This document shows positions 50,601 to 53,600 of a DNA stretch of 64,000 bases, in pieces. Numbering within the stretch: position 1 is the stretch's first letter; each line of letters starts with the position of its first letter. The stretch lies in assembly GCF_048403405.1 (NCBI RefSeq), contig NZ_CP183129.1. One strand, given 5' to 3'. A program made the position numbers. This DNA comes from Escherichia coli. Lineage in GTDB: Bacteria; Pseudomonadota; Gammaproteobacteria; Enterobacterales; Enterobacteriaceae.

Positions 50601-53600
50601 ATTCTGTGTGGTACAGGAGGCAAAGGTTGTACAACTGGCGACCTCACCACCGAAACCGTATACGGATGGTACATTGATTGCGGCCATGAAGAATGCGTCC
50701 TCCTTTATTACCGATCCGACATTAAAAAAAGTCCTGAAAGAGAATGCGGGGCTGGGGACAGAGGCAACCCGGGCAGGGATCATCACCACGCTGGAAAACA
50801 GGAAATTGATTGTCAGGCAGAAAAAAACACTCCGGGCGACAGACACCGGTTGTCAGCTGATTGATGCCCTGCCGGCAGCCTGTACAGATCCGGGAATGAC
50901 GGCGTTATGGGAACAATCACTCGAGCAGGTTGCACAGGGAAATCTGTCTCTGGATGTGTTTATGCAAAAGCAAATCAGCTGGTTGGCACATCTCATTAAA
51001 AAAGGCGGGGAAATGCCGCTGGCGCTGGATCTGCCACCGATGCCATCCTGCCCGTCGTGTCATGGAAAGATGGTCTTACGGGAGAGCAGTAAAGGCCGTT
51101 TCTGGAGTTGTCAGCGTTATCCGGATTGTAAAGGGAGTGTACCATTACCGGAAAAAATGCAGGGGGTTACCCGGGGGATGAATAAAAGAAAGAAGGCCGT
51201 GAAGAAGAGCATAACAGGACTCTTTACCTGAGTGATAATTACCGTTAGCATAGCTGACGCTAGGGAAAAGCCCCCCGTCATTGCGGCAAAGCCGTAGCGG
51301 AACAACTGCGGTGGCGACAATGAGAAAGTCTGTCTGTCAGCAGGACAGACTTTAAGGCGCATCAACCTCATGAAAACCGCGCCGGAGCTGGTTGAACTCC
51401 TGAGGTTCTTTTTAACATCACAGAGTGGGCGGCACTGTCAGGCGTTATTAACCGTAACGCCTTTTTTATTTGACAAAAAAGTTATTCATCCATGTGACTG
51501 AGTACCTGAATCACCCAGTCCGGGCAGGGCCGGGCGCTGTTTTTTTCCGGTGGGCATAACCAGGATTTTACCGCCCTGACAGAACAGGGCCTGCCTGTTG
51601 TCTGCTGAATGAGTTGAGCCAGGTCTTTTTGTGTCAGATGATGTTGCTGTAACCAGACTTTCAGTTTGTTTCTGTTATCCATTTTATTCTTCTGTGTTTA
51701 TCCTTTTCTCTCTGAACTGCTTTTTTACTTGACAAATAAAAAAAGCAGATTAATCCTTATTCTGCTTATACCGTTGCTTAATGCAACATTGCCAATGCTT
51801 CAGTTGTCTGAGAGAAGCGCCTACGGGTGACAACGATGCCAATGTTCCGGCAATCTGAGAGGAACGCCTACGGGTGATTGCCACTGCCAATCCTCGGGTC
51901 ATCTGAGACGGGAGCCTACGGGCGATGACAGAACTCCGTTCGTCCTTGAAATTGACGGAGGGTGATAACAGAATAGCGTTATCATCAGGATCATCTTATA
52001 CAACGCAAGTCGTCAGTTCGGGAGCGTTCCTGTTACTGACCCCGGTGGGAAACACGTTCCTGCCGAGACGATGTTTCTCATTTTTTTACCTTTTTTATCC
52101 GATGGAGAAACATCATGACCAGCAAAAATAATACAACATCTGAAAATAAATACTTTAATCTGCATGTGAACGGGATTGGGTATTTATCGAATATCCGTCA
52201 GGTTAACGGCCCTAAAGGGCAGTTTTTAACCGCAGTGATTAATGCACTCAGTGGACCGGCTGATAACCCTGTGTATGTTCGTTTTGATACGACCGTTGTC
52301 GGGGAGAATACGGTCTCACTGGTCAGACGGTGTATCAAAGCGGTGGATGAGGACAAAAAAGTCCTAACCGGGTTTACATTAAGTAACCTGGCTTCCGATA
52401 TTTTCACCCTGACAAAAGGTGAGCATGCCGGAGAACAGCGGGTCAGCCTGAAAGCCAGGCTGCTGAATATTGACTGGATTAAAATCGGTAAAGAAGTGGT
52501 ATATAAAGCCGAGAAACACCAGTCAACACCACCAGAGACTGAACAGCCGGTATCCAGAGAGTATGTGGCTGATTCTTTTTAGTCATTAATAAGGAGTTTG
52601 CTGTGACTAAAAATACACAACAACCGGTACATGATGCGTTATTCAAGCAGTTTTTAACGCATCCTGAGAATGCCCGGGATTTTTTCTCGGTGCATTTGCC
52701 GGCCAACATCCTGCCTTTGTGCGATTTAAGTACACTGCGCCTGGAGCCGGCCAGTTTTGTGGAGCGCCGTTTACGTCAGCTGCATTCGGATGTGCTGTAT
52801 TCCGTGCAGATGACGGAAGGGGAAGGGTATATCTACTGCCTGATCGAGCACCAGTCAAAACCGGATCGGTTAATGGGTTTTCGTCTGATGCATTATGCGA
52901 TGTCAGCGATAGCGCATCATCTGAAAAAATCGCCGGCGGATAAGACCCTGCCGTTGGTGGTGCCGTTTCTGTTTTATCAGGGCAGTGTTTGTCCTTATCC
53001 GTACAGCATGAACTGGCTGGACGGGTTCGCCGATCCGGCGCTGGCTCAGCAGCTGTATACCCGGTCGTTTCCGTTAGTGGATTTGAGTGTGCTCAGTGAT
53101 GAGGAAATCCTGACACACAAGGGTATTGCCCTGCTGGAGCTGGTTCAGAAACATATTCGGACCCGCGACGGTTTAATGGCGGTATTGCCGATAATCGCGC
53201 AGATAATTAACTCGCAACACAATACGGTTGACCAGGTGAGGAGTGTGATAGAATATATTGCCTATCAGGGGTATATTCTGGATGAATCCCGCTTTTTCAG
53301 CCAATTGATTGCACTGTCACCGGAGTATAAAACGATGCTGACAACGATTGCAGAACAACTTGAGCAAAAAGGTATCGAAAAAGGTATCGAAAAAGGTATC
53401 GAAAAAGGTATCGAAAAAGGTATCGAAAAAGGTATTGGCCTGGGTGTTGAAAAAGTCGCCCGCTCATTATTACAACAGGGGGTTGATCTGAACATTATTA
53501 TGCAATGTACCGGACTGACCCGGGAAAAGATTGAGTCATTAAAACATTAATCTTTTCTGTTTTTACTCTCAAATGCCGGCATGACTGCCGGCATTTTTTA

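What the first reader, a model, noticed from the sequence alone, without database searches (positions are those of the whole stretch)
53368..53440. Expandable 12-bp tandem repeat inside the Rpn-family nuclease gene
About 5.5 copies of aaaggtatcgaa encode an in-frame (EKGI)n linker. Copy number can change by slippage without breaking the frame, giving length-variable proteins.
Basis: seen in the sequence. Interest (0 to 1): 0.35.

Follow-up and report, generated by a model that had tools for sequence, protein, structure and literature searches.

The report
Variable four-residue repeat in Rpn toxin–antitoxin gene
A perfect 12-base repeat inside a nuclease gene on a mobile island lengthens one protein helix by four residues per copy and differs in copy number between otherwise identical E. 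coli strains; this is real, but the same phenomenon was already described for this gene family in 2023.

Summary
Five perfect AAAGGTATCGAA units plus a partial sixth (53366-53435) lie in frame in a 315-aa Rpn-family (PF04754/TIGR01784) nuclease gene at 52603-53550. The gene sits in an SPI-7/PFGI-1-class conjugative island in E. coli.

Copy number varies. Complete E. coli genomes with at most 2 SNPs over about 3.9 kb carry 3, 5 or 6 units. Other alleles carry 1 or 2. Across 117 homologues, the tract length is a multiple of four residues in 115.

The tract is not a flexible linker. AlphaFold puts it inside one long helix, and the C-terminal 71 residues match the RpnA-S crystal structure (7TH0) best.

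An in-frame ATG (53335) with a GGAG 9 nt upstream lies 11 residues before the repeat. A Met is conserved at or two residues upstream of the RpnA M244-equivalent column in 118 of 118 homologues.

This matches Zhong et al. 2023 (PMC10400941). They showed that rpn genes encode a toxic nuclease (RpnL) and an intragenic antitoxin (RpnS). The shared helix carries strain-variable four-residue repeats, including "KGIE", that set cognate toxin–antitoxin pairing.

Verdict: a real and functionally meaningful feature that is already known. This island-borne paralogue is another example and offers a natural allelic series.

The parts
52603..53550 (+). rpnL: the full-length Rpn-family PD-(D/E)XK nuclease gene (315 aa, GTG start), the putative toxin
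   Evidence: ORF listed. Pfam PF04754 at E=6e-75. TIGR01784 is above its cut-off, while the RpnA and PRK09956 equivalog models score far below theirs. RefSeq annotates the identical gene as WP_004239733.1. Residues D11, D63, E82, Q84 and R94 are invariant in 74 homologues, and these residues were shown to be essential in RpnA (PMC5350276).
53322..53325 (+). Shine-Dalgarno-like GGAG, 9 nt upstream of the internal ATG
   Evidence: Read from the sequence. It falls at the same aligned codons (…GAG = E241) as the experimentally mutated RpnA ribosome-binding site AAGGAG (K240/E241 in PMC10400941) and as GGAGGGGAG in K-12 rpnC.
53335..53550 (+). rpnS: the putative intragenic antitoxin ORF (M245 to stop, 71 aa) in the same frame as rpnL
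   Evidence: A Met is present at this column or at the RpnA-M244 column in 118 of 118 homologues. The 71-aa model has pLDDT 91.9 and three helices. The best Foldseek PDB hit is 7TH0 RpnA-S, with prob 0.99, TM 0.83 on the target and rmsd 0.8 Å. The best phmmer PDB hit is also 7TH0, at E=0.004, when the repeat is collapsed to one copy. Translation from this start was not tested.
53368..53427 (+). Five perfect AAAGGTATCGAA units encoding (KGIE)5, residues 256-275 of RpnL and 12-31 of RpnS. This is the variable part of the tract.
   Evidence: Unit counts of 1, 2, 3, 5 and 6 occur in other alleles.
53428..53463 (+). Three degenerate 12-nt units (AAAGGTATTGGC CTGGGTGTTGAA AAAGTCGCCCGC, encoding KGIG LGVE KVAR) that continue the four-residue period
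   Evidence: Codon layout. Divergent alleles carry other degenerate units here, such as KGRE EGIE VGIE KGRT.
53571..53602 (+). Intrinsic terminator after the rpn stop codon (11-bp GC-rich stem, 4-nt loop, U run)
   Evidence: RNA fold gives -17.7 kcal/mol, z = -5.3, and 0 of 200 shuffles fold as well.

Best explanation
The array is the hypervariable four-residue (dodecamer) repeat of an RpnL/RpnS gene-within-a-gene toxin–antitoxin module, here carried by an integrative conjugative island.

The long ORF encodes a PD-(D/E)XK DNA endonuclease (RpnL). An internal SD plus ATG at 53322/53335 is predicted to give a 71-aa protein (RpnS) identical to the C-terminus of RpnL. The KGIE units lie in the long first helix of that domain. 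In RpnA-S, this helix forms the dimer interface through which RpnS binds and inhibits RpnL.

By standard alpha-helix geometry, each 12-bp unit adds four residues to the helix, about 6 Å of length and 40° of rotation. It never breaks the frame, and it changes toxin and antitoxin at the same time because they share the DNA. Unit number changes quickly because the units are identical at the DNA level, most likely through replication slippage or unequal recombination. Published work on RpnC shows that a mismatch of one KGIE unit abolishes neutralisation. The number therefore acts as a specificity code that keeps each RpnS matched to its own RpnL, probably under pressure from phages.

Shown here: the array itself, its frame, membership of the Rpn family, the intact catalytic residues, the conserved internal Met and SD, the predicted helical placement, the fold match to RpnA-S, strain-to-strain variation on identical backgrounds, and family-wide quantisation by four residues.

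Inferred from the literature: translation of RpnS, toxin inhibition, repeat-dependent specificity and antiphage function.

Inferred: slippage as the mechanism of change.
For: The array is perfect and in frame. The gene belongs to the Rpn family. The catalytic residues D11, D63, E82 and Q84 are intact.

The internal ATG and GGAG sit at the position homologous to the proven RpnA iTIS and RBS. A Met is conserved there in 118 of 118 homologues, and the repeat tract starts 9-11 residues later in 116 of them. The paper's stated range is 8-20.

The repeat lies inside a single long helix in both models. 7TH0 RpnA-S is the top hit by both fold and sequence.

Alleles with 3, 5 and 6 units have 0-2 SNPs over about 3.9 kb. 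Counts of 1 and 2 units exist on the same protein background, with n=2 on 814 contigs. The anchor-to-anchor tract length is a multiple of four in 115 of 117 homologues, whereas the N-terminal length shows no such bias.

K-12 RpnC encodes KGIE with different codons, so conservation acts at the protein level.

Published experiments report that RpnS is translated from an iTIS, blocks RpnL, and needs the same number of KGIE repeats as RpnL to do so. They also report that repeat number varies within species (PMC10400941).
Against: There is no direct evidence here that RpnS is made from this gene. The consensus scan found no internal sigma-70 promoter. I saw only a hand-read candidate, TTGACC-N15-TGaTAGAAT at 53228-53254.

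The protein is only 42-47% identical to the studied RpnC and RpnA, so their function is extrapolated to it.

The PADLOC library does not recognise the full protein as a defence system. It gives only a weak hit of the C-terminal domain to a candidate model.

Clonal groups share one copy number: nine mouse-strain genomes all have the 972-bp allele. So the array is not hypermutable on short time scales.

The variation could be neutral.
Confidence: 0.8

Rival explanations
1. The variation is a neutral length polymorphism. The perfect 12-mer array slips because of its sequence, and the helix tolerates any length. On this view, copy number has no effect on toxin–antitoxin pairing or on fitness.
For: Units are 100% identical at the DNA level, which favours slippage regardless of selection. 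Clonal lineages keep one number.
Against: The four-residue period is kept across homologues of 48-100% identity that use different unit sequences and codons, in 115 of 117 cases. A published experiment shows that one extra KGIE unit abolishes cross-neutralisation in RpnC (PMC10400941).
Confidence: 0.13
2. The repeat is a DNA-level cis element, such as iterons or a binding array for the island's replication or partition proteins, that happens to lie in a coding region.
For: The gene lies directly downstream of ICE replication genes (STY4534 family, topoisomerase III, ParB). Other tandem arrays exist in the intergenic regions of the island.
Against: The unit length is a multiple of three and always in frame. 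The same KGIE peptide repeat is encoded by different nucleotides in chromosomal rpnC, which has no ICE context. Four-residue quantisation holds across non-ICE homologues.
Confidence: 0.03
3. The repeat is a phase-variation (contingency) switch that turns the gene on and off by frameshifting.
For: Perfect tandem repeats inside genes are the classic substrate of contingency loci (general knowledge).
Against: The unit is 12 bp. All full-length alleles observed differ by multiples of 12 and keep the frame. The truncated proteins in the databases end at contig edges, not at frameshifts.
Confidence: 0.01
4. The copy-number differences are an assembly or sequencing artefact.
For: Some draft assemblies break exactly at the array, giving 254-aa partial proteins that end at …TIAEQLE.
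Against: The variants are seen in independent complete genomes. The same number recurs in several unrelated isolates: 7 genomes have the 924-bp allele and 5 have the 948-bp allele. All differences are exact multiples of 12.
Confidence: 0.02

Closest known systems
E. coli K-12 RpnC (YadD) and its intragenic antitoxin RpnC-S, with variable KGIE repeats (Zhong et al. 2023, PMC10400941)
   Same: Both have a Rpn PF04754 nuclease domain followed by a C-terminal three-helix domain. Both have an in-frame internal start preceded by an SD. Both carry the same peptide unit, KGIE, shortly after the internal Met, and copy number varies among E. coli strains.
   Different: The two proteins are only 42% identical, so this is not an orthologue. 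The equivalog models score about 290 bits against a cut-off of 583. K-12 rpnC has two imperfect units encoded by different codons, whereas this gene has five DNA-identical units. This gene is cargo of an SPI-7/PFGI-1-class ICE rather than sitting at the panD-panC locus.
RpnA-S crystal structure, PDB 7TH0
   Same: It is the best structural and best sequence match of the C-terminal 71 residues. Both have a long first helix followed by two short helices. The start Met is two codons from the RpnA M244 column.
   Different: K-12 RpnA-S is 49 aa and has no repeat insertion. Here helix 1 is 22 residues longer. The dimer was not modelled here.
TAEL repeats of the HsdS subunit in the type I restriction enzymes EcoR124I and EcoR124II (as cited in PMC10400941)
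   Same: An in-frame 12-bp, four-residue repeat in a helix, where copy number changes the specificity of a defence protein.
   Different: In HsdS the repeat sets the spacing of the DNA half-sites. In Rpn it is proposed to set protein–protein pairing of toxin and antitoxin. The protein families are unrelated.
Simple-sequence contingency loci (phase-variable genes)
   Same: A perfect intragenic tandem repeat with strain-to-strain variation in copy number.
   Different: The unit is a multiple of three, so it causes no on/off frameshift. The output is graded protein length, not gene silencing.

Membership tests
Rpn / YhgA-like recombination-promoting nuclease family (PF04754, TIGR01784) | Transposase_31 (PF04754) domain over the N-terminal ~200 residues | tested here: met
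   E=6.3e-75, residues 10-211 matching profile positions 3-201 of 203.
Rpn / YhgA-like recombination-promoting nuclease family (PF04754, TIGR01784) | Score above the curated cut-off of NCBIfam TIGR01784 | tested here: met
   160.2 bits against a cut-off of 52.1.
Rpn / YhgA-like recombination-promoting nuclease family (PF04754, TIGR01784) | PD-(D/E)XK active-site residues shown to be essential in RpnA (D11, D63, E82, Q84; also R94) | tested here: met
   All are present and invariant in the 3-way and the 74-sequence alignments. Their essentiality comes from PMC5350276.
Orthologue of K-12 RpnA or of the PRK09956 equivalog | Score above the equivalog cut-off (583 bits) | tested here: not met
   285 and 298 bits. 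The protein is 47% identical to RpnA and 42% to RpnC. It is a distinct paralogue.
RpnL/RpnS intragenic toxin–antitoxin (Zhong et al. 2023) | In-frame internal start codon with a ribosome-binding site at the start of the C-terminal domain | tested here: met
   ATG at 53335 and GGAG at 53322-53325, with a 9-nt spacer. This is homologous to the RpnA RBS and M244. Met is conserved in 118 of 118 homologues. This is sequence-level evidence only.
RpnL/RpnS intragenic toxin–antitoxin (Zhong et al. 2023) | Internal promoter giving a short transcript | tested here: inconclusive
   The consensus scan finds none inside the gene. A hand-read extended -10 candidate lies at 53228-53254. No transcript data are available.
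RpnL/RpnS intragenic toxin–antitoxin (Zhong et al. 2023) | C-terminal domain folds like RpnA-S (long helix plus two short helices) | tested here: met
   Model at pLDDT 91.9 with helices 2-47, 52-59 and 63-68. 7TH0 ranks first with prob 0.99 and TM 0.83. phmmer gives E=0.004.
RpnL/RpnS intragenic toxin–antitoxin (Zhong et al. 2023) | Four-residue repeats begin 8-20 residues after the initiating Met, within helix 1 | tested here: met
   The first KGIE begins 11 residues after M245 and lies in helix 2-47.
RpnL/RpnS intragenic toxin–antitoxin (Zhong et al. 2023) | Repeat number varies among strains of one species | tested here: met
   E. coli alleles carry 1, 2, 3, 5 and 6 units. Those with 3, 5 and 6 are on near-identical backgrounds.
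RpnL/RpnS intragenic toxin–antitoxin (Zhong et al. 2023) | RpnS protein is made, binds RpnL and blocks its toxicity, and specificity depends on matched repeat number | not testable with these tools
   This needs tagging or ribosome profiling plus toxicity or SOS assays.
Anti-phage defence system | Recognised by defence-system profile libraries, or shown to protect against phage | tested here: inconclusive
   PADLOC v2.0.0 gives only a hit of residues 246-295 to the candidate model PDLC01084 at E=7e-7. Protection was shown only for the plasmid paralogue RpnP2.
Phase-variable contingency locus | Repeat changes shift the reading frame or promoter spacing to switch expression on and off | tested here: not met
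   The unit is 12 bp, and all alleles differ by multiples of 12 and stay in frame.

The most novel reading that the evidence does not exclude
On this conjugative island, the Rpn module may serve as both an addiction system and a defence system. Its repeat number would act as a fast-evolving compatibility code. It would insulate the island's RpnS/RpnL pair from the host's chromosomal Rpn paralogues, some of which use the same KGIE unit, and from phage- or rival-element-encoded RpnS mimics. The RpnL nuclease itself might promote expansion and contraction of its own dodecamer array, a possibility Zhong et al. raise.
Probability: 0.12. Interest if true: 0.6.

Novelty: already known. Interest (0 to 1): 0.22.

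Why it matters
The repeat is not noise. In this family it sits in the helix through which an intragenic antitoxin recognises its toxin. Changes in copy number therefore re-key a defence module in a single mutational step while keeping the two partners matched.

That principle was published in 2023, so this locus adds no new concept. It does add a clean natural allelic series: 1, 2, 3, 5 and 6 identical units on an almost invariant island background that is shared by E. coli, Klebsiella, Proteus and Morganella. Such a series could be used to measure how fast the number changes and how it changes. It could also test whether only matched numbers neutralise.

It also flags a practical point. Draft assemblies tend to break at the longer arrays, so surveys based on short-read data will under-count high copy numbers.

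Tried and rejected
- Searching the PDB with the full-length protein missed RpnA-S. It appeared only when the K-12 RpnA sequence was used or when the repeat was collapsed to one unit.
- Scanning the C-terminal 71 or 55 residues against the local Pfam copy gave nothing above threshold. The precomputed tables list a PF27070 domain on homologues, but that model is apparently not in the local library.
- The first exact-sequence look-up failed because the GTG start was translated as V. Repeated with M, it found only the n=1 and n=2 variants. The n=3, 5 and 6 proteins present in RefSeq complete genomes are not in that collection, so absence there does not mean absence in nature.
- The consensus promoter scan found no internal promoter, and it also missed the obvious terminator. 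The terminator was confirmed by folding.
- No supplementary files of the 2023 paper are held. I could not check whether this exact island-borne paralogue appears in its figures.
- A literature search for follow-up work on the repeat mechanism returned only the paper and its commentary.
- The gene has no near-identical copy in the plasmid or phage collections.
- The second matching place in E. coli strain 2547 could not be located. It is not within 20 kb of the first.
- The reverse-strand ORFs over the array (53265..53495 and 53297..53467) were rejected as by-products of the repeat.

Full report
**1. The observation**

Tandem Repeats Finder reports a single array at 53366..53435 with period 12, 5.8 copies, 100% matches and no indels. 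The unit AAAGGTATCGAA occurs five times head to tail at 53368..53427 and nowhere else in the window. The chance expectation is 0.03 per window, and none of 100 shuffles reached five. The 24-mer dimer of the unit has an expectation of 0.00. A partial sixth unit follows.

The array is in frame in the + strand ORF 52603..53550 (315 aa) and encodes (KGIE)5-KGIG. "EKGI" is the same repeat read in a different register.

**2. The host gene and its setting**

The ORF is an Rpn/YhgA-like protein. It matches PF04754 at E=6e-75 and TIGR01784 above its cut-off. The equivalog models for RpnA and PRK09956 score only about half their cut-offs. Identity to K-12 RpnA and RpnC is 47% and 42%, so this is a separate paralogue.

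The residues whose mutation inactivates RpnA are D11, D63, E82 and Q84 (PMC5350276). All are present here and invariant in 74 homologues, as is R94.

Identical DNA in complete E. coli genomes is annotated as an Rpn-family gene. It lies between an STY4534-family ICE replication protein and either an "exported protein" or pilL2. It sits within a set of SPI-7/PFGI-1-class island genes: integrase, ParA, dnaB-PI, ParB, STY4528 and topoisomerase III. The first 20 kb of the window is a pap fimbrial island, 100% identical to E. coli chromosomes.

A strong intrinsic terminator follows the stop codon. The gene has no near-identical copy in the plasmid or phage collections.

**3. Copy number varies, and varies quickly**

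Twenty-six of 5426 complete E. coli genomes carry the gene. The matched lengths are 924, 936, 948, 960 and 972 bp. I fetched one representative of each length and identity class and counted units.

- On the window's own background there are 3, 5 and 6 perfect units.
- On a diverged background (19-24 substitutions in the 5' 765 bp) there are 1, 2, 3 and 6 units, followed by different degenerate units (KGRE EGIE VGIE KGRT… or KGRE EGR[SN]…).

The 3-, 5- and 6-unit alleles have no differences from the window in 1500 bp upstream or in the 888 bp of non-repeat coding sequence. In 1500 bp downstream they have 0-2 substitutions and one 1-bp indel. Unit number therefore changes faster than point mutations accumulate.

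Exact look-up of synthetic variants on the same protein background found n=1 (5 contigs) and n=2 (814 contigs, named from Klebsiella, E. coli and "multispecies"). It found none of n=0, 4, 7, 8 or 9. That collection also lacks the n=3, 5 and 6 proteins that are in RefSeq, so it is incomplete.

Close homologues (at least 92% identity) have lengths of 299, 303, 307, 311 and 315 aa. Clonal groups, for example nine mouse-derived genomes, share one allele. So the array is not unstable on very short time scales.

**4. The period is a protein-level feature of the family**

I measured the distance between conserved anchors on either side of the tract in 117 full-length homologues (48-100% identity). 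It ranges from 40 to 72 residues and is a multiple of four in 115 of them. The N-terminal length, used as a control, shows no mod-4 bias.

Unit sequences differ between clades (KGIE, QGIE, EGRE, KGLE…). K-12 rpnC encodes KGIE with different codons (AAAGGGATTGAG). This argues against a DNA-level function such as iterons.

**5. Structure: a helix, not a linker**

AlphaFold models the C-terminal 71 residues with pLDDT 91.9 as one long helix (residues 2-47) plus two short helices. The whole repeat (residues 12-35) is inside the long helix.

With a 74-sequence alignment, the full-length model has mean pLDDT 86. It shows one continuous 52-residue helix (240-291) that contains both M245 and the repeat. 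pLDDT across the repeat is 77-85.

Foldseek against the PDB ranks 7TH0, "E. coli RpnA-S", first, with prob 0.99, TM 0.83 on the target, rmsd 0.8 Å and 32% identity. The E-value is weak (0.37) because the domain is small. Sequence search with the repeat collapsed to one unit also ranks 7TH0 first, at E=0.004.

The lower-ranking hits are helix-turn-helix domains (TrpR-like proteins, recombinase HTH domains). This agrees with the published HHpred remark and with the PADLOC hit of residues 246-295 to a 90-aa "putative invertase" candidate model.

**6. A gene within the gene**

An in-frame ATG lies at 53335-53337 (M245), preceded by GGAG at 53322-53325 with a 9-nt spacer.

In RpnA, the experimentally confirmed internal start is M244 and its ribosome-binding site spans K240/E241 (PMC10400941). 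In my alignment RpnA M244 lies two columns downstream of M245, and the SD-like purines fall on the same aligned codons in rpnA, rpnC and this gene.

All 118 full-length homologues have a Met at the RpnA-M244 column or two residues upstream. This clade uses the upstream position (TMLTTIAE). Xenorhabdus and Photorhabdus sequences have both (TMLMTIAE).

The repeat starts 11 residues after M245 (9-11 in 116 of 118 homologues). This is within the 8-20 range given in the paper.

I could not show an internal promoter. The consensus scan found none. The only candidate is a hand-read TTGACC-N15-TGaTAGAAT at 53228-53254.

**7. What is already known**

Zhong et al. 2023 (PMC10400941) showed the following.
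- All five K-12 rpn genes and a C. difficile rpn express a small C-terminal protein (RpnS) from an internal start.
- RpnS binds the toxic full-length nuclease (RpnL) and blocks it.
- RpnA-S is a dimer of three-helix bundles joined through the long first helix.
- Adding one "KGIE" unit to RpnC-S or to RpnC-L alone abolishes neutralisation, while adding it to both restores it.
- A plasmid-borne Rpn protects against T-even phages.

The authors state that the mechanism of dodecamer expansion "warrants further study". The library holds no later work on this point.

The feature in the window meets every sequence-level criterion of that description. The functional criteria cannot be tested with these tools.

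**8. Mechanism proposed**

By standard alpha-helix geometry, each 12-bp unit adds four residues to the helix, about 6 Å and about 40° of rotation. RpnL and RpnS are read from the same DNA, so both change together and remain matched to each other. They become mismatched to Rpn proteins that have other unit numbers.

The DNA identity of the five units makes slipped-strand mispairing or unequal recombination likely. Neither is demonstrated here.

The rivals have little support. They are neutral polymorphism, a DNA cis element, a phase-variation switch and an assembly artefact. The strongest of them is neutral polymorphism, and it is contradicted mainly by the published RpnC experiment and by the family-wide four-residue quantisation.

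**9. Verdict**

The feature is real and correctly located, and the prediction that copy number varies holds. "Linker" should be replaced by "extension of the antitoxin/toxin pairing helix".

The phenomenon is already published. This island-borne paralogue is a further example, and its only modest added value is the natural allelic series it provides.

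Noticed in passing
window 46811..46914: A 36-bp tandem repeat with 2.9 copies at 95% match. Each unit contains the palindrome GTGTTTCCACTGGAAACA. 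It lies in the intergenic gap between the STY4528-family island replication gene and a ClbS-like gene. It is a candidate iteron, origin or partition site of the island.
   Followed up: no
window 51807..51926: A 48-bp tandem repeat with 2.5 copies at 78% match, just upstream of the STY4534-family ICE replication protein gene at 52115..52582.
   Followed up: no
window 53571..53602: A strong intrinsic terminator directly after the rpn stop codon (ΔG -17.7 kcal/mol, z = -5.3). The consensus terminator scan missed it.
   Followed up: yes
proteins P0019, P0128 and P0130 (homologues of window 52603..53364): Several database 'partial' proteins of 254 aa end exactly at …TIAEQLE, the residue just before the first repeat unit. 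The contigs therefore end at the array. Short-read assemblies seem to break at longer arrays, so high copy numbers are probably under-represented in draft data.
   Followed up: partly
window 53615 (about 65 nt after the rpn stop): A single 1-bp indel separates the window from all three otherwise identical E. coli loci (L001-L003). It may be a strain difference or a homopolymer sequencing error.
   Followed up: no
NZ_CP072980.1 (E. coli strain 2547), locus L011: This genome has two places matching the rpn gene. The second copy is not within 20 kb of the first and was not located. Two copies in one cell would be informative about cross-talk between repeat numbers.
   Followed up: partly
window ~32600..64000 (compare L001): The island carrying rpn is a decayed SPI-7/PFGI-1-class ICE lying next to a pap fimbrial island. 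It contains several IS elements, pseudogenes (ArdC, ClbS and DUF2857 fragments), a ParE-family toxin-like gene and a siderophore-like cluster (TonB-dependent receptors, ABC transporters, a phosphopantetheinyl transferase). In other E. coli strains pilL2 directly follows rpn, but here an 'exported protein' and a speFL/decarboxylase fragment follow it.
   Followed up: partly
homologues P0028-P0040 (Xenorhabdus, Photorhabdus): These sequences carry both candidate internal Met codons (TMLMTIAE). This looks like an intermediate state in a two-codon shift of the internal start between clades.
   Followed up: partly
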